A stretch of DNA of 64,000 nt from a virus (taxonomy: Duplodnaviria; Caudoviricetes). The stretch is taken from positions 1 to 64,000 of the IMG/VR virus record IMGVR_UViG_3300031555_003117. One strand, given 5' to 3'. Positions 1,794 to 59,667 of the stretch are shown here, piece by piece (the first letter of the stretch is position 1; each line of letters opens with the position of its first letter). A program made the position numbers and the translations under genes. Below the pieces are notes generated by a model. It saw only the letters and a program-made list of their open reading frames with translations. It had not been told where the DNA came from and did not search any database.

Positions 1794-1799
1794 TTATCA

Positions 1800-2414: not shown

Positions 2415-2418
2415 ATTA

Positions 2419-2835: not shown

Positions 2836-2924
2836 TTATTCACCCCCTTCATTTATCATTTTCAAAATTTCAAGGCACAAAAAATCAAACCATCAATTTC
2901 AGGTTTGACTCGTTATATCAAATT

Positions 2925-3152: not shown

Positions 3153-3218
3153 GGTGTTTGAATTGCCTCCTTCCAATATCGAGGTGGGGTTGAGTATTAA
3201 GCTCAACCCCGATATTCA

Positions 3219-11322: not shown

Positions 11323-11634
11323 AATCGCAAATTGGATGCTTGTTATATGTACAACGAACAGAACAGATGAAGTATGCAGGCCGCATCAATTCCTGCGCCT
11401 TTTTATCCACTCTGTAATGGTTTTACCTAGCTGCGTGATGATCTACCCATGAAATCGCGATAACTCCATTAAACCTCGCAACCATGCAAAAAGCGTCCGG
11501 GCATTCATATCATATAACGACTTTAGGAATGAAATCCTTTACAGGATCAGGCTCCAAGGAACGAAATCTCCTTTAAGGGTGGGATAATGCTTCGCATAAT
11601 ATTATGCTACTTGTTCGTATCCCCGAATCTCAGT

Positions 11635-11761
11635 CTTAAATCACGGCGCAAACCCATTCGAATTGTAGGCGTTGTTATTGTTCGCACTACCATCGGTATT
11701 CACATTGCAGAAGTTGTTGCTGTTGTCCGAATTCACCGAACGCAACCACCAATTGCAGGCA
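11635..11761 (-). repeat. DGR template repeat (TR), 127 nt
   Basis: Aligns gap-free with 12352-12478; 12 of 13 differences are at TR adenines; AAC/AAT-rich. Confidence 0.95.
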
Positions 11762-11789
11762 AGGCCGTCAGATTTCGTCCTGCGTTCTC

Positions 11790-12257
11790 TCACGCCGTCA
11801 TGCTCATCCTTTCTTTTAATATTTTTTCATATCGTTGTTTGTCACTTGAAATTAAACCGCGTATTTTGGCATACGCATCATCTGCAAGCTGAATCCATGC
11901 TTGAAATACCCTGTCATAATCAGCACGGTTTTTGAAATAATTATTTCCGTCGTTCACAAGTTCATATAAGAATGTAATTTCGCTTCTCAATGCTCTTGTT
12001 GCACACTTCGCTTCAAGCAAAAGATTATGCCTTGTCAAATAATCATTTTCACTCAAAGTCTTGCAAATGAATATATCATTGGCTTTTTCGCAATTTACTA
12101 CAATTTCCCGAACAAGCTCTAGCAGGCCATTTGTAATCTCCCACCGATAGCTTTTCGGAAATTTGCGTACAATACGCATTGTTTCTTTGCGCAATTCCTT
12201 AGTAATCTGTAGAAATTCGGCTGATGCCGGTGCTCTTGCAGATTTGTATACTGACAT
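11790..12257 (-). CDS. avd: DGR accessory variability determinant (Avd-like four-helix bundle), 155 aa
   Basis: FPKSYRW..L motif, helical and basic; RBS GAAAGGA; lies between target and TR. Confidence 0.85.
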   Translation of the reverse strand: MSVYKSARAPASAEFLQITKELRKETMRIVRKFPKSYRWEITNGLLELVREIVVNCEKANDIFICKTLSENDYLTRHNLLLEAKCATRALRSEITFLYELVNDGNNYFKNRADYDRVFQAWIQLADDAYAKIRGLISSDKQRYEKILKERMSMTA

Positions 12258-12342
12258 AGTTCCATCCTTTCTTTTGTGCCGCAGATCCCCCAAAGCGCTT
12301 TCAGCTTTCGCTTCTGCGCTTATGGGAAGATTTGATTCAAGA

Positions 12343-26276: not shown

Positions 26277-26303
26277 GGGAGGGCAGTCAAACCCTCCCGC
26301 TTT
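26277..26303 (-). terminator. Terminator-like hairpin after TMP
   Basis: GGGAGGG-loop-CCCTCCC followed by CTTTTC on minus strand. Confidence 0.6.
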
Positions 26304-26313
26304 CCTAAAACCA

Positions 26314-28391
26314 TCAAGTCCAATGGTATTTATATTTTTCCAGTTTACTCTTTCCCATCATACGGTCAGTTGTCATGGACTGAATAAACTTTTCAAACTT
26401 GCCGTCATGCTGCATCTTATACATCAGATCATTATAATCATCAACATGGTCAATCGGCATATTGAATTCAAAGTGATTCGTCACGCTACCGATGCTCTCA
26501 CCGCCAGCCGGTTCGCCCATCCTTGAATACAATTTTTCCAGAGCAACCGTAGTATCCATTGCCCTGCTCATCACGTGCAGGTTATTCGCCAGCTTAGAGA
26601 AATTCGTAGCCTGATCCGGCGTCAGAACTGCTTCACCACGTTTCAGCGTGTTCACAGTAATTACGTCATCGCCCTGCATCTGAGCAATTCTTTTCAGTTC
26701 GCCTACATAGCCGCCTTCGCTAAAGCCCTGAATCAGCTTGGAACCATTCTTTGAAACCCAAGCCTTTTCGCCCTTGTAGATAATGGAATGCCAGTTGCCT
26801 ACGGTTTCTCCGCCGTATTCAAATGTCTGGCCTTCCTTTACCGTACCGATGTCCTTGTAGCTCTTGCCTGCACCTGTTCTTACATTCCATCTGCCGTCCA
26901 GAATTTCAACCTTCATCGGCTGAGTTTCGGGTTCGTCCGGTTCTTCCGGAGTAGTCGGAATTGAAGGAGGTGTTATCGGCTCCGTGCTTTCAGGCTCGGT
27001 TGGAATGGTAGGCGTTGTGGTGGTCGTATTCGTAATTGTTTCGCCAGCAGTTGTATTGCTGCGCAGAACCATAGAAGAAACGTTGGCGGAAATACCGTTC
27101 AGCACAGCATTCAAGCTCGTAAGCTGAGTAGTGAAATCCGTGCCATACTTGGTAATAACGCCGCTGATACCACCATCGCCAGACCAGATAGCGGTCATGG
27201 TGTTTGAAAGCTTCAAGCCCAGCTTGTCGCTGACCGTTGTGATCGTATCCTCAATCGTCTTTGAATCGGCGTTGATTGCGTCGATCATGTCAGAAATCAA
27301 GGCGTCTGTATCATCAAGACGTTGATTCAGAACGGCTTCGTAATCTGAGTAGAGGTCGTCAAGAAGCTTTTTCTGGTCTTTGATGTACTGGTCATACTGA
27401 CTTTCTGCCAGTTCATCTTCGGCTTCTGCAAGCTCAACCTGCAGTTTTTGAATTCTGGCCTTGTTTTCCTCAGAAGTATCATTGGCGTATGCACTCAATT
27501 GCTTCTGAAGCTTCTGTACTTCCGAGGATTGCTTCTTGATCTTTTTCTGATAATCATATAGGTCTTTGGCGCTGTCAAGAGATTCTTCATAGGCGTCAAT
27601 CAGTTCCCGCAGTGAATCCAGTTCCAGATTGATACCTTCCTCTACCATGTCGATGATCGCTTGCTTTTCTTCCTCTGCCGCAGAAACAGATTCATGCTGC
27701 AAACTCAGCAGTTCTTCCCTGCGCTCAATCAGGTCAGTATTGTAAGGATCATTGGCAATCTGCTTGTCGATCTTTTCTATCTCATCGGCATACTTTTCTG
27801 CCTGTGCAAGATAAGTATTATAATTCTGACCATGCAAGCCCATTGCAGCCATACCTTCATCAGTTAGCTGTCCGCGCTCAGTGTAGAGGTCTGAGTTTTC
27901 CAACAGAGAAATCAGCGTGTTCGCTTCATCTGTAATCTTGGAAATGCGGTCTTGCACATAGTCGAAGTAAGACCATTCAAGGTTTTGTATCTCTGCGCCA
28001 TATTCGGCAACGGCAACCTGGCTTTCCTGAATTGCTTCCTTGGTATCATTGATCTGAATCTGCATTGAATACCAGGCTTCGCTGCCTTCTTCAATTTCAC
28101 CAGAATTGATACCTTGGCTCATAGCCTGAATCAAATCAGCCAATCGCTTTTCAGAGATGCCTTGCTTGGATTGTTCAACTGCCTGCAGCTCCTTGTAGAA
28201 GTTAATGCTTCCGAGGTAGCCCTGTGCGTCAAGTTGAGCAATGCCGTTGTTAATGGTATTTGCCCTGTGCTCTTCAAGCGCAAGTTCGTTATCCATCTGG
28301 GTAGTGATGGTGTCGAATCGCTCCTGATAAAGAGAAGCAAGGGATTCATGCAGTTCATCAATCGCATCCTTGCAGTCAAGGGCTTTTTCAT
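26314..28391 (-). CDS. Tape measure protein exon 4 (includes C-terminal SH3b domain)
   Basis: Joins exon 3 as TGG T|AT GAA AAA (W-Y-E-K-A-L-D), in frame with ORF 26314..28296; WNVRTGAGKSY SH3b motif. Confidence 0.85.
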
Positions 28392-28493
28392 CGTTATCTT
28401 TAGTTGGTTAGCTACACCAACTGGATTGTTAATCCCACATAGTTTCCTATGTGACGAGACTATATCTTCTACACTAAAAATAACAGTATGATA

Positions 28494-28521
28494 TTGACAT
28501 AACAATAAATCTACATATAAT
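28494..28521 (+). promoter_or_regulatory. sigmaA-type promoter inside intron 3 (peptide mRNA)
   Basis: TTGACA-16 bp-TATAAT. Confidence 0.75.
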
Positions 28522-28687
28522 AAAGATGTGGAAACCACCGTCAGGTCAGGGTTCTTTTCGTATCGTTTTCTGCCTTGGCGGTTGATGGTAAAAGGGCGGT
28601 TGCCTCCTAATTCGACACTCGCGTGAGCTGAAAGGAGGTGCAATGTGCGGCTCCCGACGAGAATACTTTTTCGGAGGTGAATTGCGC

Positions 28688-28822
28688 ATGAAAGCTATTT
28701 CATTTATGGGAGACCTTTGTGGCATCTTAGGATTTATCCTAACGATTCTATTCCGTGTAATAGACTCTTTTAAATGGAAAGCGAGCCGTCTCGCTACAGA
28801 CGACTCGCTTAGGGGTATCTGA
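28688..28822 (+). CDS. Putative type I toxin, 44 aa membrane peptide MKAISFMGDLCGILGFILTILFRVIDSFKWKASRLATDDSLRGI (in-frame upstream ATG at 28643 gives 59 aa)
   Basis: RBS GGAGGTG; one hydrophobic helix then basic residues; convergent antisense promoter; below the ORF-track size cut-off. Confidence 0.65.
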   Translation: MKAISFMGDLCGILGFILTILFRVIDSFKWKASRLATDDSLRGI

Positions 28823-28885
28823 GGTCGTAAGCCTCAATGCCTTTGTATAAGCCTGTTTCTCGTGGCGACCGTCTAGGTTTCCACA
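28775..28885 (-). ncRNA. Putative antisense antitoxin RNA (about 110 nt, ends approximate)
   Basis: Minus-strand promoter at 28891-28919; terminator-like 12 bp hairpin at 28779-28810; overlaps 3' part of peptide ORF. Confidence 0.55.
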
Positions 28886-28890
28886 TCTTT

Positions 28891-28919
28891 ATTATATATA
28901 GCATTTTTTATCGTGTCAA
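28891..28919 (-). promoter_or_regulatory. sigmaA-type promoter inside intron 3 (antisense RNA)
   Basis: TTGACA-17 bp-TATAAT on minus strand. Confidence 0.75.
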
Positions 28920-29173
28920 GATACATTTTGAGTATATTTTAGGTAGTCTACCTTTTCGAATCGCCAATCGCTTGCGATCCTACTCCCTTGCGGGATAGTC
29001 GTTGAACGTTCCCCTGTTCAGGGCTTCGCTGCTGATTGCCCAATCCTTACGTTTTTCAAACCATCGCACTTCGGTTTATTTCATCCGTATGCTGTGGTTG
29101 TAAGGCTCTAAGGGGTTTCCAGCAATTAAATAGAATACCCCTATTCGTTACCGAATAGAGGGGCAATTTGTTT

Positions 29174-29775
29174 ACCATTCTGTATAAGAGTCTATAAGTT
29201 CAGCGGTTTCCTCGTCATATTCCTTGATGTCGATTGTACCGTCATGAACCTTCTTTTTCAGTTCGTCAGACAGGCCAACAGAATTTGCTTCCTGCATATA
29301 GCGCTCAAAACCAGCCTCTTGAATTGCCAATTCTTCACGCATCTTGCGCATCTGTTCTGTTGCCGCTTCAAGTCTCTTGGGAAGCGGCTTAAAAATGCTG
29401 GCAAATGCATTTGCAGCCTTTTCAACCAGACGCTGAATGCGACTGATAGCAACTTCGATCCAGTCTTTGATGGAAGGATCGGATTCTTCATCGGAAGAGC
29501 TACTGGAAGAACCTTTGTTTGAGGAACTACTACCTGATGGTTTAGTCGTTACCTGACCACCGATGATAACCGACCCATTAGCCGTGCCACCATACTCAGT
29601 ATTGGACGCAAAAGCCGTACCCTCAGCAAGTGCTTTTCCTCTCGGCGTAATGCCTGAGATTTTACCATTTTTCAGCAATTGCTCTGTCTGCTTATGGTTA
29701 AAGATTATGTCGCCCTTCTTGTATTGGAAGAATTCTGCGCCATAATCGCCGATGGTGAAGTATTTGCCGTTACGT
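29174..29775 (-). CDS. Tape measure protein exon 3
   Basis: Joins exon 2 as GTG GT|A CGT AAC GGC (V-V-R-N-G-K-Y-F), in frame with ORF 29172..29678. Confidence 0.85.
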
Positions 29776-31355
29776 CAAATATGTTTCGCTGGTTCGCTAC
29801 GCCAGCGAGGAATAAAACCTCTCATGCTTTCACATGAGTTCAGACTATATCTTTGTGTAAATGATGATTGATGATTGTTTCTATATTGTTGTATTCCCAG
29901 TATGGGAAACGAATTAATTCGATTTTGTGCTTATGACAGTAGTTTGTTTTAATTTGATCATGCGCCTGTATGTATGAGAGAGTATTACCGAATTTGCCCT
30001 TGTCCATGAAGTGTTGCTCGCCATCAAATTCAATGCACATATTCTGGCTGGGAAGATAAAAATCAAACGGAAGTGGCCTTATATCCCTACAATCCTGAAA
30101 TATCTTTTCCTGCACATAGGGTATATTCATGTTCATAAGATGATTACGTATCTTTCTTTCGCCATTACTTTCTATATGAGAACACTCAGGGCATACTTGG
30201 CCTCCATGCTGTACAAACAAAACCAGCGAGGTAATAAAAACGCCTCCGCATCTGTTACACAGAATACGAAGGTTTTTTCGATATTGATTTATATACTCAC
30301 TCTTATTAAGCAGCAACCCGCCTAACTGTGTAATTCTATTCTCCACTTCATCAATAGACAGACTGAACTGTTTTGAAGCTTTATCCTTTGCACAACCGGG
30401 ACATCCTTTTCCGATTTTGAAATTTGAAACCCTCATACGTTGTTTGCCGTGAATAGGGCATAAGTAAGTAATATAGTCAGTATTCCTTTTGATCTCTGAT
30501 AGATCACCGATAATCTCATAGCCTTTTTGATCGGCTACTGACATAATCCCATCTATATGCGCTTCTTGCCTGTCGCGTAGTGTTGAATTTGCCTTTGCAT
30601 TACCAGCCGCAGTCCGACCACACGCATAGCACGCCTTTCCTTGAAGAATATTGGTTACTTTAGTACGCTGCTTGCCATGTTTAGGACAAATATAGTATAT
30701 ATCACTTTGAACATTGGCAATATCACTTTCATTAGAAATAAGCACATACTCATTTTTGTCGCACCATTCTTGGATCTTTGAATAATGTGATAGGCGTCGG
30801 CGAAGAATAGTTGCTTCATTGATTTTTTCGCCAGAACATTTTTGACATGCTATCTTTTGCTTATTTCTTTCTACAACACGATAAGCTTGATATGGTTTGG
30901 AAAACGAAGCTCCGCAATAATCGCATATTACCTGTACATGCACATTGGACTTATCCATTAAATCTTCTGGATGAACAATAAACTTCTCTCTATACTTTGT
31001 AAATTGATAACCTTTAGATTCAAAATGATTTCTGTTCTTCGGATTCCAACTTACTTCTATTTCTTGATTTTCAACTAAAATATTGATTCACCACTTATTG
31101 AATGTATTTCAATCATTCATTTACACATCTACCTTTTCGGATCGCCTATCGCTTGCGATCCTACTCCCTTGCGGGATAGTCGTTGAACGTTCCCCTGTTC
31201 GGGGCTTCGCTGCTGATTGCCCAATCCATTCGTTTTCAAGCATTTACGTTCAGGCTTATTTCATCCTCACGCTGTAGCCGAATGGCTCTAAGGGTTTTCC
31301 AGCAATTAAATAGATTATTTGTTCTGCTTGTTGCCAAACAGTGTGGCATCGTAAT
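29776..31355 (-). ncRNA. Group I intron (TMP intron 2), 1580 nt, with homing endonuclease in P8
   Basis: Canonical core elements; P1 GUGGU/GCCAC with U-G wobble; AAGATATAGTCT; frame restored. Confidence 0.93.
29840..30958 (-). CDS. Intron-encoded homing endonuclease: Zn-ribbon repeats plus PD-(D/E)XK/Vsr-like nuclease (frame open upstream to 31081)
   Basis: CxxC/CPxHG repeats; LPFDFYLP...IEFDGEQH motif; stop codon embedded in the P7 3' strand. Confidence 0.8.
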   Translation of the reverse strand: MDKSNVHVQVICDYCGASFSKPYQAYRVVERNKQKIACQKCSGEKINEATILRRRLSHYSKIQEWCDKNEYVLISNESDIANVQSDIYYICPKHGKQRTKVTNILQGKACYACGRTAAGNAKANSTLRDRQEAHIDGIMSVADQKGYEIIGDLSEIKRNTDYITYLCPIHGKQRMRVSNFKIGKGCPGCAKDKASKQFSLSIDEVENRITQLGGLLLNKSEYINQYRKNLRILCNRCGGVFITSLVLFVQHGGQVCPECSHIESNGERKIRNHLMNMNIPYVQEKIFQDCRDIRPLPFDFYLPSQNMCIEFDGEQHFMDKGKFGNTLSYIQAHDQIKTNYCHKHKIELIRFPYWEYNNIETIINHHLHKDIV

Positions 31356-34300
31356 ACCACGATTTCGCGCCCCAACTCACCACCGAGAGCAGTTCCAGAA
31401 CGCTTAGTACTCCAATCGCCTTGTGCATATGCAGTGCCACTTGCATACGGGCCGACACCGGGAGTGGGACTGCCAGAAGTATTGGTACTTGTAGTGGTCT
31501 TATTAACGGTTTTATATACGTTTGTCCAAGTAACAGTACCACTTGCTTTAAACTCCGTCTTGACCTGGGTTTCATCGTTTTTATTCCAGAATACTGTGCC
31601 AAATGCACGCTTGCGTATTCCTTCATATCTGACGATTGCTTTGGCGTCGTTGCTCCATTTTACAATGCCAGTAGCGGTATGATCTGCATTCAGGTATTCA
31701 TCAACCAACGTAGAATCAACGCCAGCTTGAATGAGCATTTCAGGAGTGACTTCTTTAAGCTGTGCATTTAATTCTTCTGTAGATGCCGTTGGATCAATAC
31801 CAAGTTTTGCAGCAATTGCCCGTTCCTCACTGCTGAAAGAAGCAATAATTGTATTGATTTCAGTTTCAAGCTGTTTTGTATCTGCTCCAAGGGAAGCCTT
31901 GAGCTGCATGTCGTTATGGCTATTTCTCAGGCGTTCAAGCTTGCGCAGTGTTTCACCAACCGTTCCGTCAATATCGCCCAAATCAATATTGAAAATGGTT
32001 GGGGTTTCCAGCGCTTGCTTTTGCAGTATCAACGCAGAGAGGACATATTGCGCTTCTTTTGCACCTTCAGCCTCGATGTCAATATTTCCGTCTTCATCTC
32101 TGAATTCATCAAGCGCCTTTTCAGCTTCTTTGATCTGTTCTTCAACACGCGCTACATTGGTAGTATCAAAATTGAATTGATAATCTGTTGCGCCCATAGA
32201 GTTCAGTGCTTTTGCTGCTTTATCGGCCTTTGTGGTGATTGTGTCGAGATCACCATACTTCATATCAAGCTCTACATCGAAACCATAGTCCGAGAGCTTG
32301 CGCATGATGATTTCAACGGCTTCCGCGCTGATTCCAAGTTCTTTGGCTACTTCTGAGAAATCATCAATATTGATGTCCCAAGAATTGTCTTCATTTAGCG
32401 TCGCCCAACCCTTTCCAAGTTTCTCAACATCGTTAAGGAAGTGCAATACGCCGTCTGAGCTATCTTTGAAGTACCGCTGCATCTTGGGGTAGGATTCCTC
32501 GTATATGGATACAAGGTCAGCGGATGAAGCACCACTCAGGTCTTCATCGGTCATGAGTTGAACAGCGGATCTGAACTTATTGGTTCCGATCAAACCATCT
32601 TCATATAAACCCTTTATGTCTTCAAGGCCACCCGTGATGCCATCATACATGTCGCCTTCTTCGCCCATACTCTGTGCCTGTTCCCATTTACGGTAAGCGG
32701 AAGTCAGGCCGTCGTACTGTGAAATCAGGTCGGCTGTATCGTTAATCTGTGCAGCAATTTTGTCGCGCTGTGCATATAGATCAACCGTGCTTGCAGTATT
32801 ACCGGCAGCATTAATCTGTTTTGTAAGGTCTTCATACTGCGCAATCAGTTCATCCATCTTATCGGATGTTTTCTGCTTTGTGAATTTCTCGTACTCACTT
32901 TCCAGTTCGCGCAGTGCCTTGGTATTCAGATGAATGCCGTGCTGGGTGCGTTCAAACAGGTTTGTAGTATCAACACCCGATAGGGAAGCATACCGCTTTT
33001 TCAGGTTTTCTATGGATTCAGCAGCCAAGCCCGTTGAAGAAACGGATTCCTTGATTGCAGTGAACAGGTTGTCCATACCTTCTGCCTCGGCATTGATGTC
33101 AATGGCAAACTGAGTTTCACCAACGACTTTGCCAACAGCAAGAACAACTTCCATGAAGTCTTCAAGCTCTTTGCGGTCTTCTTCGGAATCGCATTTACCG
33201 AATTGCTCATTGAAGGCTGCAATTACATCTGCGTCCATGGAGCCTAGAAGATCAATAATTGCACCTTCTAAATCCTCGCTCTTGCCTTTGAGTTCGGGGA
33301 ATTCGTCCATGAGCTTGTACATGTCGATGGGTTCAAGGCCATCTTCCTGTACCTTTTTGAGCGCGTCTTGCAGGGTTTGTGCGTCTGCGATGTAATTGTC
33401 AATAGCTGTGTCAAAAGTATTTTCCTCAACTTCAATCGCAAACGACTCTTTTATACTGTCTGCGTATTCCTGAGTAATAGTTTTTGCCTCTGCCAGCTTA
33501 TCAATATAGGAGTTTACCCAAGTTGTTAGGAAATCAGATTCGTAAGTAATGGAGCCATCATCGCCAAAGGTGAAGAAATCCTCCAGCGAATAACCTTCGC
33601 CTAGTACATCTAAAAGACTAATCGCCTTTTCCAGAGCTTCATTAAATGTGAAGTTACCGCTATTTAGGAAATCTAAGTAGTTGGACACATTGGACACTCG
33701 ATCAAGCGCATTAGACATCGCATCTAGTTCATCTACGGTGTCACTGAAACCCATATTCAACGCCGCGTCAAGTGTAATCGCCTGTTCAACGGTAAGGTCG
33801 CCGGCTCCATCTTTGAACTCGTTCAAAGCATTTACGTATGCTGTTTTTACGGCATCTGTATCAATGATAATCTTGCCATCAATTACTTTGTACATACCCT
33901 TGACAGTCTCTTCGTCAAAGGTATTCATCAATTCCAGAAGAGTTTCAACGGAATTGCTTCCGTTCTCAACAAGTTCTTCCTGAACCTTGCTTACAAAATC
34001 AGAAGCGTCGCCTATTCCTTCCATGGCTTCGGCAAAACTGTGGAATGTCAGAGGGGCTTCTTCGGAAAATCCAACTATGCTGCGAAGCGTTTCCAAATAT
34101 GTTTCTAGTGCAGCAATGTTTTCTTCGGTGAGCTCCATGTCCTCTGCCATTTTGCCCACATATCCGAAAAGATTATCATAACTTGATTCGGAATACCAAC
34201 CTTCAAGGCCAACAATTTCCCGTCGTGCCCGTTCAATTGCCTTCTCATAACTGCCAGTTTCAGCAAGCAATTGATTTAGATCTGCTTCTAGCAACCTGTC

Positions 34301-35995
34301 AAGATCAAAAAAGTCCTTGTCATCAAAGTTACCGGATTTAATCTTTTCAAGCGCATCATCAAGCTTCTCAATATCTTCAAGATAGCCATTGATTGTGTCT
34401 GAAACGTCATCGTCTCTTTCTGGATCATTGAAGAATATCTCGTCAAAGGATTTGCCTTTGTATTCAGAATCTCTTTCTAGTTCTTCGTAGAACCCATCGT
34501 ATCTTTCGTACTGCTTCAAGAGATCATCTACTGCTTGGCCTACTTCAATTCCGTAAGTAACAAAGTCACCCGAACTTAAAAACTTGCCGCTAGAGATTAC
34601 AGCTTCTCTGATGGCATTATTAAATTCTCGGAATTCCTCGGTTGTTTCAGGTAAACCTTGCTCATTTACAACTTTATTGAAAGCAGAATGTACTGCCGTA
34701 GCATTCGCTTCGTCAATCAGCCCTTGTAAGGTCGTATATTCATCTTCGAGCTCTTCAATTTTATCGCCAATATGTTGAAATATGTTGCTTGCAAACAGCT
34801 CATCTTCATCATAAAGACCTGAACCTAAGCCTTCGATTAAATCATCACGCAACTCAATCAGGTATTCGTAAGCTTTAACCGCATCGTCTGACGTTTTAAT
34901 TTCTCCGAGTTCGATAACACCACGGCCAAGTATACCATCAGTAGTGCCAACTTTGTGTCCAGCTTCGCGTAAGTATTCAACAAACGGCGCATCTTCCTTG
35001 CCATATCTTACAGCATCAAATCTAAAAAAGCCGTCTCCTGCGGCTTTAAGAAGTTCTTCTTTAGCACCTTGAATGCCAGAAACTATGTTTGCGTATTCGG
35101 TATCGAGCGCCTTCTGGGTAGCCTCGTCTATTGTTCCATTAAGAGCATCATAATCATCAATTAGCTTTTTGATCTCGGCATCTTCAAAGCCTAAAGCCGC
35201 GAGAAGAGCTTCTGTAGCCGAAGTGAAACTTTCTTTTGAACCAGTACCCGACTCATAAGCCAATTTTGCATCATCATATGACGAATAGAGATCGCGAATA
35301 CTAGACGCTTCTTCCTTGGCCGCTTCAGCGGTTTCAATAGCTTCATTGCGAAGCTCTTTTTCGTGGTTAATAAGCGAACTAATTCCAGAAACAATAGCAG
35401 TTACGGCAAACGAAATGGCAAGGGTCTTAAGAGTAGAAATGACCGCATTTGCAGTAGCAGTTGCTGCCGACAAAGCAACCGTAGCAGTTTTTGATTTAAC
35501 TAAATATCCAATATAACCCTTGAATGAAGCTTTTGCTCCATTTAAGCTTGTAAGATATTGTCCTAAAACATTGTTGCCATTACCGACCGAATTTATATAT
35601 TCCGAAGTTTCTAAACCGGTAGCCGATATCCCATTATTATATCCGTCGATCAAAGAGCGAATGCTTTTAAAAGACTTTCCTGCGGCTAAAGTTGATACCT
35701 GCAATTCTCTTTGCTGTTTTGAAAAACTATCAACTTTTATACTTAATGGATCAACAAGTTTTGCATACTCTTTGGCTGCAATGCTTGCACCATCCATTGC
35801 TTTTGCCAAAGCTACTTCTTTGGGAATATGTGCTTTAACAAGTACACCGTAGCGCCTTAGTGCTTTTTCGTCTACTTCAAGTTGTTTTGAAAAATCAGCC
35901 CCATAACCGAATTTTTCAACAGAGAATAGCCCCTTAATAGAATCCGATATTGCTATTTTACTTTTTCCAAGCTCGTCCTGGACAATTTTGAATAT
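31356..35995 (-). CDS. Tape measure protein exon 2
   Basis: Long acidic helical ORF; joins exon 1 as GGT|ATA TTC (K-N-V-G-I-F-K); ends in TALGGELGREIV. Confidence 0.85.
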
Positions 35996-36035
35996 CAATA
36001 CTGTAAATATAAAAGCGATGCTTGAAGTCGCTTCA

Positions 36036-36063
36036 TTGACATTGCTCGAAAAATAAGTATAAT
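36036..36063 (+). promoter_or_regulatory. sigmaA-type promoter for plus-strand cargo genes
   Basis: TTGACA-16 bp-TATAAT followed by AGGAGG RBS and ATG 36099. Confidence 0.75.
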
Positions 36064-36098
36064 TAACATAACATTATTACACAATTAGGAGGATTGAA

Positions 36099-36569
36099 AT
36101 GGGATATATCTACTATTGTCCTGTATGCGGATGCGATCAATTTAGAGATGCAGCCAAATGTACGCATTGCTATAATCCAGTACGACCCGTACAGTCTAGA
36201 TATGAATACGAATACTATCAAAGAAAAGCTTTTATGCAATACGGTAGTTCTTCGGAATGGAAACGTGTATTGCAGGAAGAAGAGGTCAAATATCATCCTC
36301 TTTATAACGGAAGAACAGCCTCTCAAAGAAAGACTACCCAAGAAATTGAGCAACATAATAAAGAGATTTTAGACAACTTAGCCTCTAAACAATTAGAACA
36401 GCTTAAGTATTCTGCTTCTACCAACCAACCCAAATGCCCCACATGCAATTCCGCCAACATTCAACGCATTTCCACTCTCAAACGTGCTACACATGGCTAC
36501 CTATTCGGCATTTTCAGTAACACTGCAAGATCTCAGTTTGAATGCCTTAACTGTAAGTATAAGTGGTGA
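36099..36569 (+). CDS. Cargo: double zinc-ribbon protein
   Basis: CPVCG/CTHC N-terminal and CPTCNS...CLNCKYKW C-terminal Cys pairs; RBS AGGAGG. Confidence 0.8.
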   Translation: MGYIYYCPVCGCDQFRDAAKCTHCYNPVRPVQSRYEYEYYQRKAFMQYGSSSEWKRVLQEEEVKYHPLYNGRTASQRKTTQEIEQHNKEILDNLASKQLEQLKYSASTNQPKCPTCNSANIQRISTLKRATHGYLFGIFSNTARSQFECLNCKYKW

Positions 36570-36607
36570 GTGATTCTGATCCGTCGAAGTAAGGAAGGCG
36601 GTTACAA

Positions 36608-37174
36608 ATGAGCAGAGGATCTAGGGGTGGCGATTTCCCAATATGGGCATCCGTTGGGCTTTTAATATGTTCATTCGTGTGTCCATTTCTGGTAATTCTA
36701 CTGCTTTTCTTATCCTATAAGCCAAGCCAAAGCGCTAGGGATCGTATCTCGTTAATGCAAGGCATACTCGTTATCGGCGGCGCGATCCTTGCCGCAATTC
36801 TCTGCCCGATAATTGTAATCGTCGGTTGTGCAGTCGATGGCATTTCATACACGTTTAGTGAATATGGTTTTGCTTTTGCGGTTGTAATCATGGATATACA
36901 TCTGGCATTACATCTCTGGCACAAACGTATTGCCGCAAGAAATACATCGGTGCTTGGCGAGGATGAAACAACTTCCATAGATAATCCTCTCTATAAGCAA
37001 CCAAATCAGTCTGTTACGCAAGAGAAAAGAGAACAGGGTTGTTCATTTACTCTATTGGTGTTCGCTTACTTAGGTGTTGTATGCTTCTGCTTTTTCAATG
37101 AGAGCATAAACGATTTCTTCACTGCGCTTATTTTTGGATATGGGATGGCATACCTGTTAAAGCATTACTTCTGA
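36608..37174 (+). CDS. Cargo: multi-pass membrane protein
   Basis: About five hydrophobic segments; RBS AAGGAAGG. Confidence 0.7.
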   Translation: MSRGSRGGDFPIWASVGLLICSFVCPFLVILLLFLSYKPSQSARDRISLMQGILVIGGAILAAILCPIIVIVGCAVDGISYTFSEYGFAFAVVIMDIHLALHLWHKRIAARNTSVLGEDETTSIDNPLYKQPNQSVTQEKREQGCSFTLLVFAYLGVVCFCFFNESINDFFTALIFGYGMAYLLKHYF

Positions 37175-37209
37175 ACAACGACACTGCAAATATGAGTTTT
37201 GGACACAAG

Positions 37210-37240
37210 AAAAGAGAGTCAGTTTGTCTGACTCTCTATT
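37210..37240. terminator. Bidirectional terminator between convergent cargo genes
   Basis: AGAGAGTCAG-TTTGT-CTGACTCTCT 10 bp stem with A/T tracts on both sides. Confidence 0.8.
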
Positions 37241-37357
37241 TAAGGTCAAAACCTTTAAATCCTCTAAGAGAATTCACCTTGTCTCTCCGGTGCGAGCGCG
37301 ATATCCTACCGAATATCTAATAGCGTTTTGACCTTTTAAATCTATTGCATAGTCTGT

Positions 37358-38077
37358 TCATTGCTTGCAAATATAATGCTTTTTGCGCTTTTTAATTTCC
37401 CTCTGTAAATTCTCCCAAAGGCAATTATCAACCTTACTAAACTTCTTTGAAGACCGCGAAGGTTTGATCTCAGATTCGTCAATATCTTCTGTAGTTGTCG
37501 GCCAGATTTCTAGATGTTTTACTTTACGAACATCAAATACAAAGCATCTATCTGGATCTTCACAGATATATGTAGGCTCGTTTGTCTCAAGGTTATAAAA
37601 AGCATAATATTTCAATGACATATGTGGATCATTGGGATCATTGCTATAACCAGCAACCGCACCTTTGATATAATAAGGTAATCCGTCTATATGAACAATT
37701 GCCACACTGCCGTATCCACCAAGCGTGATTGTACCCGCTAATACGGTTGGCGTAGACGAAAAATGGAACACTTTAAGTAATACAGATTCAACTCGTTTGC
37801 TCTGTGCCAACAAGGAAAATATTACTGAACCAATAATCGCAAATACGCATGCGGAAATTGCTTTCCATGCGTAATTCTTAATCAGCTCTTCGGGCAATAC
37901 AATTCCAGATATGGCTACTACAATATAACTTATCACGCACGATATCCACAATGTATTTGCACCATTTGATTTTGTACTTGTGAACAAACGATATACTGAT
38001 ATTGCAATATATCCAGGAATAAAGTATATCAACAAGTCTGGTATCTTAGTTACGTCAAATCCACTAATATAAATCAC
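37358..38077 (-). CDS. Cargo: membrane protein, DUF6338-like
   Basis: YFIPGYIAI and further N-terminal TM helices with a soluble C-terminal domain; GTG start overlaps upstream TGA. Confidence 0.7.
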   Translation of the reverse strand: MIYISGFDVTKIPDLLIYFIPGYIAISVYRLFTSTKSNGANTLWISCVISYIVVAISGIVLPEELIKNYAWKAISACVFAIIGSVIFSLLAQSKRVESVLLKVFHFSSTPTVLAGTITLGGYGSVAIVHIDGLPYYIKGAVAGYSNDPNDPHMSLKYYAFYNLETNEPTYICEDPDRCFVFDVRKVKHLEIWPTTTEDIDESEIKPSRSSKKFSKVDNCLWENLQREIKKRKKHYICKQ

Positions 38078-38229
38078 TTCCCACTCTTCTCTTTGGAACT
38101 CTGTGCCTGCTGCTTACTCCCATGTGAAATTTTTGAAGTTGTTGCTCCATTCCAACTAAAATTCTCATGAGTTACTTTTTTGTCGGGCTCATTCGTATTC
38201 CGAACATTTGCGTTGTTTTTATCAGCCAT
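38074..38229 (-). CDS. Cargo: 51 aa hydrophilic peptide coupled to DUF6338-like gene
   Basis: MADKNNANVRNTNEPDKK...KSGK; RBS AGGTGGTG; TGA overlaps next GTG. Confidence 0.55.
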   Translation of the reverse strand: MADKNNANVRNTNEPDKKVTHENFSWNGATTSKISHGSKQQAQSSKEKSGK

Positions 38230-38262
38230 AATGCACCACCTATTAATCATGTTGTCAATATA

Positions 38263-38291
38263 ATAACACTTTGATAAATAGGTGTCAACGC
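38263..38291 (-). promoter_or_regulatory. sigmaA-type promoter for minus-strand cargo genes
   Basis: TTGACA-17 bp-TATTAT with extended TG. Confidence 0.6.
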
Positions 38292-38721
38292 ATATGCATC
38301 AAGCTACCACTGTTTGACCATCCAAGCTCATGGCAGGGGAGGGTAGCCCCACTATTTTCTATACGCCAGTTAGCCCACTGGTTTGGTTTTTACCCCGGCA
38401 TTTGCTGCTGCCGGGTACAGTTTGCAACATACAATCACGATTTTCACCGCGCAGGTTTATGTCCTCTGAACCCACCCAATCTCGCATTTGGGCGATGGCT
38501 GCTGATAGCTTCATGCGCTATTATATGCAGCTTTACGCATGAAACGTCCCAGTCTATCGGCATAAGAACCATTACTTATGCCAGTTTATCCTGTTTTCCC
38601 TAGCCCCTCTTGGCTACGCAGCGAGTCTTCGCGCAACCTCGTTCATGTTACCATTAGTAAAGGCTTCGTGGGCATATTCAACTCGTAGTATAATCCGAAA
38701 TTGGAACTGATTAATTAGTTC

Positions 38722-41136
38722 ACCCACGTTTTTCAGTGAGAGTGCAGCAGTTATTGCACCAATAAGCGTAGGTATAGTACCTATCTTTTCAATAACGCCG
38801 TCAAATACTGAAAGTATGCCGGTTCCGGCATCAACAAGTCCCTTTAAAAAGTCAGCCTCAAGAACCGTATTGGAAAGAGACTGCCATGCAGTGGTCAGCT
38901 TATTAAGCTTACCCTGTAGTGAATCTACATATGAAGCATTTTCCTTTGCCGCAGATCCCGTAGCATTGGTTGCAGCTCTCATTGCTGCTTCTACCTGCTC
39001 CCAGTTATTGATCATTGCAGCTACATCACTGGCACGGTTCTTACCAGCAATCATTTCAAGTACATTGGATTGAACGTTTCCACTGAGAGAATCCCAAACA
39101 TTGGCAAGGTCATCCATTACTTCATAAGTAGATCGAAGTTCGCCAAGAGAATCAACCAGGCTTACACCTGTCAAATCCTTCATGGCAGAATTCATCTTAG
39201 AAGTAACTTCAATCAACCCTTCAGCATCTTCGCCAATTGCAGTAAGTTCTTCTGCCGTAGTGCCGCGTAAACGCATTGAAAGCGTTCTAAGTGCGTTACC
39301 TGCTCTGCTGGCATTCTGAGTTACTTCAATCATACCCGTTGCCATTGCTGAAGATTGCTGAATACTATTACCAGCAACTTCAAGCGCAGAAGCACTATTC
39401 TTCAAGGCTGCGCCAACATCGGAGGCTTCTACGGCAAATTTGTTTCCGAGTTCATTAAAGATGTCGGCAACATATTCTACCGCCTTGGTTACATCGCCGT
39501 CTTTAAGTTGAAGTAGCTGATCTTGGAATCCCTTATATGCGGTCACTAGATCATCAACTGCAGCACCGTGTTCAAGGTCAGTAACATGCTGATACATCGA
39601 AGTGACATTAGCAAGCTTTTGTGCATCGTATGCATTAAAACCAAGCTTTGCCCAATCAGCAGTTGAATTGATAATATCGGTCAGTTCCGCACCGTATTCT
39701 TTGGCCGAAGAAGTCATTCTCTTGTAGAGATTCTTATATCCTTCGTCCGTTAGGTTTGTAACGCGGTACAAACCCGTCATTGCAGTGTCAACAGCCAAAA
39801 CGTTTTGAGCCATCTGTTCAAATACTTCTTTTAATTGGCTCAAAATCGTTGCTACACTGACATATCTTAAAATACTCCCGAACGCCTTGGTCATCTGTGA
39901 TCCAAGGGTTTGCCCGGTTTTGCCTAACCTTTCTGCTTCGATCTTAGTTTGTTCAAATGCTCTTCTGACATTCTCAAACTCTGCACGAGTTAGGCTTCCG
40001 CTTGCATTCAACGTACTTAGTCTTGAACGCAAAGCATCAATACTTGAGCCGAATTGCCCAGCCGCCTTTGTATTCTTTTGAAGCCAGCTAGACATTTCAT
40101 TATCAAGCTTGCCTACTTCGATTATACCTACACTTTGCCTATCCTCAGTCTTAATTGTTGAAAGAGTGCTTTTGACTCTGGTAAGTACAGTTTCAAACTC
40201 ACGGTAAGATGCAATCAAGTTGTCAGCATCTATATCTGGCTCCTGCATTGTAGCACTCAGAGTGCGCAATTTCTCCAAATCGTTTGCAACGGTCAATAGA
40301 CTATGATGCCCCGTGCTGCCAAGCTGCTGATATTGCGTGGTGACTTTTGCAATGTCAGTTTCAAGACCAACACCACGTTTACCCCCTGCTGCAATAACAG
40401 AAAGCGTATCCTTAACCCTTTTAAGAACAATCTCAAATTCATTATAGGACTGCGCTAATGTATCCGCATCTATATCTGGGCTCTTAATAGTTGAGCTCAA
40501 ATTCCGCAGCGCTTCCAAGTCGCTCTTGACCATCGATAGACTGCGATGCCCTGAATTACTGAAATCCTGGTACTTTGCAGTTACACTTTCGATGCTCTTG
40601 TCAAGATTTATACCGCGTTTTCCCTCTGCAGAAATGGTAGTCAGCGTATTCCTAACCCGCGCAAGCGTGTTTTCAAATCTTTGATAGGATTGTATAAGCG
40701 CACCTGCGTCAATATCGGGCGTTTTCATTGTGTCGCTTAAACTTCGTAGCTTCTGCAAATCGTCCGCAACAATTGAAAGACTATGATGCCCCGTGCTGCC
40801 AAGCTGCTGATATTGCGTGGTGACTTTTGCAATCGAACTATCTATTTTGCTAAAGTCGAGCGAATCTGCAAGCCTATTGTTGATTCCCCTTGAAAAACTC
40901 TGTCCAGAATTTTTAAAAGCGGCGTCAAACTGTTTTTCGAGACCTGAAAAATTAACGTTGTCAAATGTGATTTTAAATTTATGTTTATCAAGCTCAGACT
41001 GAATCTCAGAAACAAATCCCTTGGTATTAAGTGAAATATTGCTCAACTTAATTGGCGTTTTGCCTATGCCAGCAACTTGCTCTGGGATTTTTGACGTGTC
41101 TAAAATCGCTTGTATTCTAGCTGTATATTCAGACAT
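38722..41136 (-). CDS. Tape measure protein exon 1 (805 codons; TP901-type core)
   Basis: VDTAMTGLYRVT, ADWAKLGF, ASRAGNALRTLSMRLRG motifs; three 80 aa tandem repeats. Confidence 0.9.
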
Positions 41137-41183: not shown

Positions 41184-42233
41184 TTACAATTCTTCTAGTG
41201 AAGTTTGTTTAGTTTTCTTGATGCCTTCTGCACCAAAATATTTTTCAAACTGCTTATCCGCCTCTGTATCAATATATACTTTCAGCATATCCGCAGACTC
41301 CCATCCGATCATTTCCTGAATTATATTATCAGGAATGCCGTATTCATGTAATTTGGTAGTTAGATGATGTCTCATACTGTGCCAGTAGAATGGTCTTCCG
41401 AGGATCTGCCCGAAACTTCTTGCCCATGAATCCAACGTTGTAGTTGGGATTGGTTCATCAAGCCATTGTCCAGCATAGTATTTAGGAAATAACCAATCGG
41501 TGTTGATTTTTAGTTCTTTCCTCTGTGCCATCCAGAGATCAAGGTAGGGCTTAAATGGTTTGGCAAGTGTATAGATATCTAATAGCTTGCCTCGCGATCC
41601 ACGCCCTTTAGTTGTTACCTTTTCGGGTGTCTTATATAAGGCACCCTCACAAATTAGATTATCCTTATCAAAATAACTAACCTTAAATCTGGGAAGTTCC
41701 GCCTTGCGCCTTCCATTATTAATTGCAAGTGCAAGCATGCAAGCTTTCATATATTCCTTGTTTTCAACCAAGATATCCAGCAGTTTTTGCAAATCATCTT
41801 CAGTAAACACACTTTTTTCTCGCACTGCAATATCTGCTGGAGACTCAATTTTACGCACAATTGGTTTATAATCCTCAAATTCATCGTCGAGTATATTTTC
41901 TACGTAGTTGCTCAACGATGAAATGGTGGCCTTTACTGTACGAATACGCTTAGGAGACCATTTCCATACGTTGATAGCATGACTCTGAAACTTAGCGATC
42001 TCGCGTTTAGTTAAGTCTACAAAATGTTTATTCTTATTGAATTCTAAGTTCCAACACCAAAAAATATGCAAATTAGCCTTATATTGAAATATCGTCCCCT
42101 TTGAACGATCAATCGATGAAAGATAGTCAAGGAAGCCTTCTTCTAAGTCAATGTTATCGGGGTTTACTTGAGCCATCTTTTCATCGGAAGTAATAGTGTT
42201 ATAAACAGTTTTTCGTCCATCATTTTTACTCAT
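41184..42233 (-). CDS. Second tyrosine recombinase embedded in tail operon (SPbeta YomM-like position)
   Basis: NGRRKAE and WHSMRH...IGW....Y motifs. Confidence 0.85.
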   Translation of the reverse strand: MSKNDGRKTVYNTITSDEKMAQVNPDNIDLEEGFLDYLSSIDRSKGTIFQYKANLHIFWCWNLEFNKNKHFVDLTKREIAKFQSHAINVWKWSPKRIRTVKATISSLSNYVENILDDEFEDYKPIVRKIESPADIAVREKSVFTEDDLQKLLDILVENKEYMKACMLALAINNGRRKAELPRFKVSYFDKDNLICEGALYKTPEKVTTKGRGSRGKLLDIYTLAKPFKPYLDLWMAQRKELKINTDWLFPKYYAGQWLDEPIPTTTLDSWARSFGQILGRPFYWHSMRHHLTTKLHEYGIPDNIIQEMIGWESADMLKVYIDTEADKQFEKYFGAEGIKKTKQTSLEEL

Positions 42234-59512: not shown

Positions 59513-59588
<76 letters not shown>

Positions 59589-59591
59589 AAA

Positions 59592-59667
59592 TGGCGCTCG
59601 GTACTGGGCTCGAACCAGTGACCCTTCGGTTAACAGCCGAATACTCTACCAACTGAGCTAACCGAGC
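59592..59667 (-). tRNA. tRNA-Asn(GTT), phage-encoded
   Basis: TTCGG-CTGTTAA-CCGAA anticodon arm, CCA. Confidence 0.93.

What the first reader, a model, noticed from the sequence alone, without database searches (positions are those of the whole stretch)
26314..41136. Tape measure protein assembled from four exons (predicted 3244 aa)
Seen: exons 41136-38722 (2415 nt), 35995-31356 (4640), 29775-29174 (602) and 28391-26314 (2078) sum to 9735 nt, or 3245 codons, with all junctions in frame. Automated annotation would call four unrelated ORFs. Inference: three splicing events are needed for each tail, a possible timing or quality checkpoint; partial splicing would give truncated TMPs.
Basis: partly seen in the sequence, partly recalled or inferred. 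Interest (0 to 1): 0.7.

Follow-up and report, generated by a model that had tools for sequence, protein, structure and literature searches.

The report
Phage tape measure gene with three introns
A gut phage's tail-length ruler gene is cut into four pieces by three self-splicing (group I type) introns and reads as one 3244-residue protein once they are removed; interrupted tape measure genes are already known, but the first intron is an unusual, unannotated type that carries extra genes.

Summary
The four minus-strand segments sum to 9735 nt and give one open 3244-aa frame with the predicted junction peptides. It has a strong ribosome-binding site only at exon 1.

All three junctions align without gaps to uninterrupted homologues of 3000-3300 aa.

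Introns 2 (29776-31355) and 3 (28392-29173) are Rfam-positive, paralogous group I introns. Intron 2 carries a homing-endonuclease gene. A natural intron-less allele of intron 3, reading TEWYEK, occurs in DNA contigs from two metagenome studies.

Intron 1 (35996-38721) has no Rfam match. It still shows a 12-nt internal guide pairing both exon ends (U.G at the 5' site), a terminal G, and compensatory changes in homologous insertions at the same site in at least eight other phages or prophages. It carries an antisense zinc-ribbon gene with its own consensus promoter, plus variable membrane-protein cargo. I rate its splicing as probable, not shown.

No RNA data were available. The "timing or quality checkpoint" idea has no support.

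Multi-intron tape measure genes and three-intron phage genes are published, so this is a new member of a known kind. Intron 1 is the novel part. Earlier notes of this scan had already flagged the same features on this genome.

The parts
38722..41136 (-). TMP exon 1 (805 codons). ATG at 41136 with a GGGAGG ribosome-binding site 7 nt upstream. Contains the PhageMin_Tail domain.
   Evidence: (PF10145, E 1.9e-22). Aligns to the Brevibacillus phage Sundance and SPbeta YomI tape measure proteins.
35996..38721 (-). Intron 1 (2726 nt): Rfam-negative, group-I-like intron with cargo genes.
   Evidence: It interrupts the conserved KNVG|IFK motif exactly. The exon ends in U and the intron ends in G. Homologous insertions sit at the same site in G001/L012, L015, L016, L019, L027 and L029-L032. 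There is no RF00028 match even at E<=10.
38668..38679 (-). Internal guide sequence of intron 1. GAAUAU pairs with the first 6 nt of exon 2 (P10). GCCCAC pairs with the last 6 nt of exon 1 (P1), with a U.G at the splice site.
   Evidence: 12 of 12 pairs, reached by 11 of 5000 shuffles. The pairing covaries with the exon sequence in G001 (AUCGGU/GCCGAU; AUAUUU/AAAUAU) and L016 (GUCGGU/GCCGAC).
38290..38721 (-). Structured 5' block of intron 1, the presumed ribozyme core. R-like GUUCAGAGGACAU lies at 38471-38459. A GNRA-capped hairpin lies at 38451-38436. The candidate P7 3' strand AUGUU lies at 38430-38426.
   Evidence: Fold z-score -4.2. At least 7 hairpins show compensatory changes between the window and L015. 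The assignment to group I helices is my own reading and is unproven.
36099..36569 (+). Antisense zinc-ribbon ORF (156 aa) inside intron 1, driven by a 12/12 consensus promoter at 36036-36063. It is the one ORF shared by all homologous introns.
   Evidence: (41% identity to the G001 copy). No nuclease domain was found.
36608..37174 (+). 188-aa membrane-protein ORF, variable cargo of intron 1.
   Evidence: A related strain in run X6 lacks 36567-37199 (633 nt).
37358..38229 (-). Sense-strand cargo of intron 1: a 51-aa ORF (38229-38074) overlapping the start of a 239-aa membrane-protein ORF (38077-37358). Promoter at 38288-38260; terminator-like hairpin at 37237-37213.
   Evidence: No family match.
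31356..35995 (-). TMP exon 2 (4640 nt). There is no ribosome-binding site before it.
29776..31355 (-). Intron 2 (1580 nt): group I intron with the homing-endonuclease ORF 30958-29840 placed between the core and the J8/7-P7-P9 end.
   Evidence: RF00028 gives 66.3 bits at 31365-31054 and a weak 3' match at 29943-29822. The ORF matches phrog_559 (E 2e-55), phrog_9084 and phrog_7140. P1 is GUGGU/GCCAC and P10 is CGUAA/UUACG, read directly from the sequence.
29174..29775 (-). TMP exon 3 (602 nt).
28392..29173 (-). Intron 3 (782 nt): group I intron without an endonuclease gene. It is a paralogue of intron 2 and has a roughly 370-nt insert in P8.
   Evidence: RF00028 gives 80.1 bits. The core is 83% identical to intron 2, and P9, P9.1 and P9.2 covary. 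An intron-less allele occurs in DNA contigs of runs X6 and X9.
26314..28391 (-). TMP exon 4 (2078 nt including the TGA stop). It contains an SH3_3 domain and is followed by a terminator-like hairpin at 26298-26277.
   Evidence: Of 36 listed strain differences at 26386-27114, 29 fall on third codon positions of this frame.

Best explanation
The region encodes one SPbeta-like tape measure protein of 3244 aa, interrupted by three self-splicing group I type introns. The primary late transcript would run from 41136 to 26314. Each intron would pair its internal guide sequence with the last bases of the upstream exon (U.G at the cleavage site) and with the first bases of the downstream exon. It would be released after its terminal G, and the ligated mRNA would be translated from the single ribosome-binding site at exon 1.

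Introns 2 and 3 are paralogous phage-type group I introns with extra helices after P7. Intron 2 still carries its homing endonuclease; intron 3 has lost it or never had it.

Intron 1 belongs to a lineage that Rfam does not detect. This lineage recurrently occupies the KNVG|IFK site of this TMP family in phages of gut Clostridia. Its ribozyme appears to lie in the first ~430 nt. The remainder is a long 3' tail holding an antisense zinc-ribbon gene with its own promoter and, in this phage, further membrane-protein genes.

Shown: the exon structure, colinearity with uninterrupted homologues, the Rfam matches, the guide pairings and their covariation, the intron-less allele of intron 3, and codon-level constraint on exon 4.

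Inferred: that splicing happens in vivo, for intron 1 in particular, and the mapping of its catalytic core.
For: Exon structure and translation signals:
- The joined frame is open for 3244 codons.
- A strong ribosome-binding site is present only at exon 1; none precedes exon 2.

Colinearity with homologues:
- Gapless alignment across junctions 1-3 to uninterrupted homologues, e.g. P0014 (3120 aa, 47-51% identity), P0087 (3293 aa), P0003 and P0076.
- Viral contigs L007, L009 and L010 read KNVG-IFKTIEDE without interruption.

Introns 2 and 3:
- RF00028 scores 66.3 and 80.1 bits.
- Their cores are paralogous and the P9 helices covary.
- Intron 2 carries a homing endonuclease.
- Runs X6 and X9, from two studies, hold DNA contigs joining 28389 to 29173 with one letter between. 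On the coding strand this reads ...TGG TAC GAA AAA = W Y E K, the predicted junction with a synonymous change.
- 29 of 36 listed strain differences in exon 4 lie on third codon positions.

Intron 1:
- The guide pairs 12 of 12 positions.
- P1 and P10 covary with the exon sequence in three lineages, and the intron ends in G in 9 of 9 cases.
- The exon ORFs on both sides stay intact in every carrier, including a provirus rated 100% complete.
- In the group C relatives, RNAalifold without any prior recovers a P3/P4/P5/P6 nesting, with compensatory changes in P3 and P4.
- The exon 1 read-through tail is not conserved as protein: L016 has stop codons after 8 codons.
Against: - No RNA evidence exists: no run on record as RNA holds the region.
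- Intron 1 has no RF00028 match at E<=10, and neither do its relatives.
- My mapping of the intron 1 core (P3, P7, P8) rests on motif resemblance and on two nearly identical sequences.
- One hairpin, which is well supported by covariation, conflicts with a canonical P4-P5 reading.
- The 3' splice site of intron 1 lies about 2.3 kb from the presumed core. The intervening stretch contains a terminator-like hairpin on the TMP strand and convergent promoters, which could make splicing inefficient.
- The P1 helix of intron 3 has only three standard pairs.
Confidence: 0.78

Rival explanations
1. Intron 1 is not spliced, and the tape measure is a 'gene in pieces'. An 840-aa N-terminal protein (exon 1 plus a 35-aa read-through tail) and a ~2440-aa protein started at the TTG at 35998 (after removal of introns 2 and 3) are made separately and work together. 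The inserted cassette is then a mobile gene block rather than an intron.
For: Exon 1 runs on to its own stop codon at 38614. A TTG directly precedes exon 2. 29 of 150 representative homologues are called as proteins that start at this point, most of them with M placed directly before IFK. The insert has no Rfam intron match. Split functional phage genes are known from my own knowledge, e.g. Aeromonas phage Aeh1 nrdA split by mobE.
Against: No ribosome-binding site precedes exon 2 in the window, G001, L015, L016 or group C. L016 has TCG, not a start codon, at that position. The read-through tail is not conserved as protein. This model gives no reason for a 12-nt guide to pair with both exon ends and covary with them, nor for the invariant terminal G.
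Confidence: 0.12
2. The 2.7-kb insert is a DNA-level insertion that inactivates the gene (a defective phage), or it is excised as DNA by the tyrosine recombinase encoded just upstream (41184-42233).
For: A Phage_integrase family gene lies directly upstream of the TMP. The record is only about 48% complete.
Against: No direct or inverted repeats lie at the insert ends. A homologous integrase-like gene also sits just upstream of the uninterrupted TMP of Brevibacillus phage Sundance, so it is not tied to the insert. The exons downstream stay open in all nine carriers, and exon 4 evolves under codon-level constraint. No DNA contig lacking intron 1 was seen in four runs, though contigs can miss rare forms.
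Confidence: 0.04
3. One reading: the three splicing steps act as a regulated timing or quality checkpoint for tail assembly, with partial splicing giving shorter functional TMPs.
For: The literature discusses introns as possible 'on-switches' and reports exon skipping in multi-intron phage genes (PMC11878797, which cites Landthaler and Shub 1999).
Against: The introns show the marks of selfish mobility: a homing endonuclease, paralogous copies, presence/absence polymorphism, and many alternative sites in relatives. Unspliced products stop 35 codons, 34 codons or immediately after the exon ends and would lack the conserved C-terminal region.
Confidence: 0.05

Closest known systems
Group I introns TMP-IVS1, IVS2 and IVS3 in tape measure genes of Bacillus cereus-group prophages (Tourasse and Kolsto 2008, PMC2504315)
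   Same: These are group I introns of phage type (IA1/IA2) inside prophage TMP genes of Firmicutes. They occupy several sites per gene family, with up to two in one gene. Closely related introns sit at different sites with adapted guide sequences, some lack an endonuclease gene, and they insert at the most conserved stretches.
   Different: Here three introns sit in one much longer TMP (3244 aa against more than 1200 aa). The host lineage is gut Clostridia rather than Bacillus. One of the three is not detected by the Rfam model and carries an antisense gene plus cargo.
Staphylococcus phage Twort orf142, a single gene with three group I introns (Landthaler and Shub 1999, as cited in PMC11878797)
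   Same: Three self-splicing group I introns lie in one late structural phage gene. That gene was later found to encode the tail tube protein.
   Different: A different gene and phage family. Twort splicing, including exon skipping, was shown experimentally; here nothing is shown at the RNA level.
Bastillevirinae DNA polymerase and terminase genes split by two or three group I introns (Weglewska et al. 2025, PMC11878797)
   Same: Multi-intron phage genes in Firmicutes phages that are fragmented by automatic annotation.
   Different: According to that paper, those introns are confined to DNA-metabolism and terminase genes. Here a tail gene is hit.
Phage T4 nrdD (sunY) intron, whose ORF lies downstream of a compact catalytic core (my own knowledge, not checked here)
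   Same: If my mapping is right, intron 1 likewise has its core near the 5' end and a long ORF-bearing 3' extension ahead of the 3' splice site.
   Different: The T4 ORF is a sense-strand homing endonuclease. Here the conserved ORF is antisense, has a consensus promoter of its own and shows no recognisable nuclease domain. Further unrelated genes ride along with it.

Membership tests
Group I intron (Rfam RF00028), introns 2 and 3 | Covariance-model match above the curated gathering score | tested here: met
   80.1 bits (28436-29183) and 66.3 bits (31054-31365) against a gathering score of 50.
Group I intron (Rfam RF00028), introns 2 and 3 | The 5' exon ends in a U paired to a G of an internal guide (P1), and the intron ends in G | tested here: met
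   Intron 2: GUGGU/GCCAC with U.G, and the intron ends ...UUUG. Intron 3: only GGU/GCC (3 pairs), and the intron ends ...AACG.
Group I intron (Rfam RF00028), introns 2 and 3 | Precise removal restores a colinear host gene, and intron-less alleles exist | tested here: met
   Gapless alignments across both junctions. An intron-less DNA allele of intron 3 occurs in runs X6 and X9. No intron-less close allele of intron 2 was seen.
Group I intron (Rfam RF00028), introns 2 and 3 | Guanosine-dependent self-splicing | not testable with these tools
   No RNA run holds the region.
Group I intron, intron 1 | Covariance-model match to RF00028 | tested here: not met
   No match at E<=1 over 15.5 kb or at E<=10 over the 561-nt block. 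None in the relatives either.
Group I intron, intron 1 | An internal guide sequence forms P1 (U.G at the 5' site) and P10, and the intron ends in G | tested here: met
   GAAUAU|GCCCAC pairs 12 of 12 positions. Compensatory changes occur in G001, L016 and group C. The terminal nucleotide is G in 9 of 9 introns.
Group I intron, intron 1 | Conserved core P3-P9 with the P7 guanosine-binding helix | tested here: inconclusive
   R-like GUUCAGAGGACAU and Q-like AUCAGCAGC motifs and a P7/P3'/P8/J8-7 arrangement can be read but lack covariation support. The group C relatives show a canonical P3/P4/P5/P6 nesting.
Group I intron, intron 1 | Precise removal restores a colinear host gene | tested here: met
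   KNVG|IFK is continuous in homologues. 39 representative proteins span the site.
Tape measure protein (SPbeta YomI-like) | PhageMin_Tail domain (PF10145) in a very long, largely helical protein | tested here: met
   PF10145, E 1.9e-22. tblastn matches to annotated tape measure proteins of Sundance, SPbeta and relatives.
Tape measure protein (SPbeta YomI-like) | Gene position directly upstream of the distal tail protein and tail tip genes | tested here: met
   The downstream ORF 25352-26170 matches the Dit family phrog_33 weakly (E 2e-4). It is followed by a 1989-aa ORF with weak tail protein and tail fibre matches.

The most novel reading that the evidence does not exclude
Intron 1 represents an undescribed lineage of group I introns that current RNA family models miss. 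It is specialised for one conserved site of long tape measure genes in gut Clostridia phages. It is maintained not by a sense-strand homing endonuclease but by, or together with, an antisense, independently promoted zinc-ribbon gene. It also serves as a neutral landing pad for lysogeny-expressed membrane-protein genes. The TMP transcript must then be made through convergent transcription and an internal terminator, and spliced across more than 2 kb.
Probability: 0.55. Interest if true: 0.7.

Novelty: new member of a known kind. Interest (0 to 1): 0.45.

Why it matters
Practical point: tape measure genes of large gut phages are systematically mis-annotated as several unrelated ORFs. In the protein library searched here, the junction 1 site alone accounts for 29 of 150 representative 'proteins' that start there. 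This distorts tail-length predictions and protein-family statistics.

Biological point: the case adds a third host lineage and a three-intron example to the known invasion of tail genes by group I introns.

Intron 1 would matter more. If it splices, it shows that standard models miss a widespread intron lineage. It would also show that a self-splicing intron inside an essential late gene can carry promoter-bearing genes on both strands.

Tried and rejected
- RNA evidence: no RNA holder was listed for the region, so splicing could not be observed.
Genomic context of the library proteins had to be obtained by pattern and protein scans instead.
- Megablast and blastn of the region or of the intron 1 5' block against 50,697 phage records found only short matches to other group I cores, or nothing.
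- tblastn of the exon 2 N-terminus against the same records found nothing.
- The first protein-based scans of viral contigs found no relatives.
- Exact core motifs of intron 1 found only the loci already known.
- Group II intron was rejected: there is no GUGYG start, no AY end, and no domain V match in Rfam.
- Transposon or recombinase cassette was rejected: there are no terminal repeats.
I rate this less likely. The closest relative, L015, has CGUCAA there, and the AU-rich tails of G001, L016 and group C offer no partner. A conserved AUGUU within the 5' block fits canonical spacing.
- I could not settle the P3-P5 part of the intron 1 core by hand.
- PADLOC, PHROGs and Pfam gave nothing for the three cargo ORFs.
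- I did not check whether the genome encodes a YonO-like RNA polymerase.


Full report
**Source and setting.** The window is the first 64 kb of a 74-kb IMG/VR virus record rated about 48% complete. Genes run almost entirely on the minus strand. The stretch in question lies between a tyrosine-recombinase-like gene (41184-42233) and a weak Dit match followed by a 1989-aa tail protein. That is where a siphovirus tape measure gene (TMP) belongs. Exon 1 carries the PhageMin_Tail domain. By tblastn it resembles the annotated tape measure proteins of Brevibacillus phage Sundance (2528 aa), SPbeta YomI and many other Firmicutes phages. Related loci come from Lachnospiraceae, Butyrivibrio, Acetatifactor and other Clostridia MAGs. 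Near-identical DNA is held by faeces, gut and sheep metagenomes.

**The observation.** Joining the four segments on the minus strand gives 9735 nt. This is one frame of 3244 codons with a single terminal stop, and the junction peptides are KNVG|IFK, EIVV|RNGK and TEW|YEK. A strong ribosome-binding site (GGGAGG) precedes the ATG at 41136. No such site precedes exon 2.

**Colinearity with uninterrupted relatives.** I searched the first 600 residues of exon 2 against 1.84 billion representative proteins. This returned 554 relatives, of which 150 were listed. BLAST of the joined protein against those 150 gave the following:
- HSPs span junction 1 in 39 proteins, junction 2 in 58 and junction 3 in 57.
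- P0014 (3120 aa) aligns over residues 257-924 at 47% identity and over 1443-3243 at 51%.
- P0087 (3293 aa) covers all three junctions.

Local multiple alignments are gapless at each junction. Homologues read ..SLKN-VG-WFKT.. and ..SFKN-IG-IFKT.. at junction 1, ALGGELGxELxVRxGKxFTIG at junction 2, and Y(Q/K)xWYEKALDC at junction 3. Three viral contigs read KNVG-IFKTIEDE without interruption.

Called proteins in the library also pile up at the junctions:
- 29 N-termini project to residue ~805.
- C-termini cluster at ~2356 and at 2552.
- Further clusters at ~623, ~872 and 2829 point to other insertion sites used in relatives.

So this TMP family is widely invaded, and automatic annotation does fragment it.

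**Introns 2 and 3.**
- Rfam RF00028 matches 28436-29183 at 80.1 bits and 31054-31365 at 66.3 bits, against a gathering score of 50.
- The 3' end of intron 2 (J8/7-P7-P9; 29943-29822) is found separately, beyond a 372-aa ORF.
- That ORF matches homing-endonuclease families: phrog_559 (E 2e-55), phrog_9084 and phrog_7140.
- The two cores are 83% identical. Downstream of AAGAUAUAGUCU, both carry three hairpins whose stems differ by compensatory changes before the terminal G. They are paralogues with different guides and payloads.
- Intron 2 forms P1 as GUGGU/GCCAC and P10 as CGUAA/UUACG. Intron 3 has only three standard P1 pairs.

*A natural intron-less allele of intron 3.* DNA contigs of a ~96% identical strain occur in two runs from different studies (X6 from sheep, X9 from gut). 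They join 28389 to 29173 with one letter between. On the coding strand this reads TGG TAC GAA AAA, that is W-Y-E-K. This is exactly the predicted junction, with a synonymous TAT to TAC change next to the site.

*Constraint on exon 4.* In the same comparison, 29 of the 36 listed differences between 26386 and 27114 fall on third codon positions of the exon 4 frame. Exon 4 is therefore under protein-level constraint, although it has no start signal of its own.

**Intron 1: lack of a family match.** This 2726-nt insert gives no RF00028 match, even at E<=10 on the isolated 5' block. It holds two convergent gene units with near-perfect sigma-70 type promoters:
- Minus strand: a 51-aa ORF coupled to a 239-aa membrane-protein ORF, followed by a terminator-like hairpin.
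- Plus strand: a 156-aa double zinc-ribbon ORF and a 188-aa membrane-protein ORF.

**Intron 1: homologous insertions elsewhere.** Homologous insertions lie at precisely the same TMP site in other genomes:
- A 103-kb provirus rated 100% complete (G001; 909 nt).
- Two viral contigs (L015, 1117 nt; L016, 1191 nt).
- A further viral contig (L019).
- Five Clostridia MAG prophages (L027, L029-L032; 938-1229 nt).

All share an antisense zinc-ribbon ORF next to the 3' end (41% identity between the window and G001) and a hairpin right after the 5' junction.

**Intron 1: guide-sequence pairing.** In the window, the 12-mer GAAUAU|GCCCAC at 38679-38668 pairs with the first six bases of exon 2 and the last six of exon 1. 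A U.G sits at the splice site. Only 11 of 5000 shuffles reach this score. The pairing follows the exon sequence in the other lineages:
- G001: AUCGGU/GCCGAU and AUAUUU/AAAUAU.
- L016: GUCGGU/GCCGAC and UUUUC/GAAAA.
- Group C: UUUGCU/GGCUAA and CAAUUG/UAAUUG.

All nine introns whose ends I could fix end in G. This is the group I way of choosing splice sites, and the two rival models below do not account for it.

**Intron 1: mapping the core.** The core is only partly mapped.
- In group C, RNAalifold without any prior recovers the nesting P3[P4[P5]][P6]. P3 (GAGGA/UCCUC against GAGAA/UUCUC) and P4 (UGCUGG/UCAGCA against UGCUUG/CGAGCA) show compensatory changes.
- Group C also has R- and S-like elements, such as GUUCAGAGACAUACC and AAGGUAUAGUG, in canonical order.
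- In the window's own lineage (the window plus L015) at least seven hairpins are supported by compensatory changes.
- There I can read a Q-like AUCAGCAGC and an R-like GUUCAGAGGACAU.
- After the R-like element comes AAA-CCUG, then a GNRA-capped hairpin, AUUGU and AUGUU. This fits P7-J7/3-P3'-P8-J8/7-P7' in spacing.
- That part is invariant between the two sequences, so it is unproven. One well-supported 9-bp hairpin also conflicts with a simple P4-P5 reading.

I consider this less likely, because L015 and the other lineages have no matching sequence there.

On my reading the ribozyme is complete within the first ~430 nt. The cargo then sits in a long 3' extension, and P10 recruits the distant 3' splice site.

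**Intron 1: why the gene is not dead or split.**
- The exons on both sides remain open in every carrier. G001, for example, has 783-aa and 2610-aa ORFs flanking the insert.
- No ribosome-binding site precedes exon 2 in any lineage. L016 lacks even a start codon there.
- The read-through tail of exon 1 is not conserved as protein.
- No terminal repeats flank the insert.
- A homologous integrase-like gene also sits just upstream of the uninterrupted TMP of phage Sundance.

The cargo is variable: the X6 strain lacks 36567-37199, the 188-aa ORF.

**What remains uncertain.** No RNA data exist for this phage. Splicing of all three introns is therefore inferred. For intron 1 there are additional obstacles: an internal terminator-like hairpin on the TMP strand (37237-37213) and convergent promoters. 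In SPbeta the late genes are transcribed as one operon by the phage polymerase YonO (PMC5467207). Whether this phage has such an enzyme was not checked.

**Comparison with the literature.**
- Group I introns in prophage TMP genes are published. They occupy three sites, with two in one gene. Closely related IA2 copies sit at different sites with adapted guides, and some copies lack an endonuclease gene (Tourasse and Kolsto 2008, PMC2504315).
- Single phage genes with three group I introns are known from Twort orf142 and from Bastillevirinae polymerase and terminase genes (PMC11878797, citing Landthaler and Shub 1999).

The four-exon TMP is thus a new member of a known kind. It is larger, and from a different phage and host group. 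The part that goes beyond the literature I could find is intron 1: a widespread lineage missed by Rfam, with an antisense promoter-bearing ORF and extra genes. Earlier notes of this scan on the same genome had already flagged its guide sequence and cargo. I checked those points independently here.

**Verdict.** Confidence that the three introns are removed to give one 3244-aa TMP is about 0.78. Individually I put introns 2 and 3 at about 0.95 each and intron 1 at about 0.8.

Noticed in passing
window 36567-37199: A ~96% identical strain in metagenome run X6 lacks these 633 nt, which hold the 188-aa membrane-protein ORF inside intron 1. The intron cargo is therefore a variable module.
   Followed up: partly
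window 28494-28521 (+), 28919-28891 (-), 36036-36063 (+), 38288-38260 (-): The only 11-12 of 12 matches to the sigma-70 promoter consensus in the 15.5-kb TMP region all lie inside introns 1 and 3, as convergent pairs. Earlier notes read the intron 3 pair as a type I toxin-antitoxin-like cassette.
   Followed up: partly
window 37213-37237 (-) and 26277-26298 (-): A terminator-like hairpin with a U-tract sits on the TMP strand in the middle of intron 1. A second one lies right after the TMP stop codon. The first would have to be read through to make a full TMP transcript.
   Followed up: no
L015:1470-1579 (-): The homologous intron in viral contig IMGVR_UViG_3300024272_000384 contains a 'drum RNA' match (RF02958, 74.1 bits, E 4.9e-12). 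It lies between the conserved 5' block and the antisense ORF. The window's intron has none.
   Followed up: no
window 10042-14640: A reverse transcriptase ORF (RVT_1, 10042-11322) lies next to an RT-2 RNA match (11340-11621, 76.6 bits). Just beyond is a 765-aa ORF ending in DUF6273. This looks like a diversity-generating retroelement next to a tail or receptor-binding gene.
   Followed up: no
window 41184-42233: A tyrosine-recombinase-like gene (Phage_integrase, E 1.5e-14) lies directly upstream of the TMP. Brevibacillus phage Sundance has an 'integrase' in the same place, so this looks like a conserved feature of the tail module rather than the lysogeny integrase.
   Followed up: partly
joined TMP residues ~623, ~872 and 2829 (library proteins P0049, P0078, P0053, P0029 and others): The ends of called proteins in relatives cluster at three further positions that are uninterrupted in this window. 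This suggests additional intron or insertion sites in the TMP family.
   Followed up: no
window 26284-26329: In the X6 and X9 strains, the 46 nt between the TMP stop and the next gene are replaced by 319 other letters.
   Followed up: no
window 29854-31173: One X9 contig joins 29853 to 31174, skipping the endonuclease ORF region of intron 2. The anchor is short (31 nt) and what lies between is not known. It may be an ORF-less intron variant or another intron of the same family.
   Followed up: no
window 36-190 and 59516-59667: Two pairs of tRNA genes lie near the two ends of the window (Rfam RF00005, 63-69 bits).
   Followed up: no
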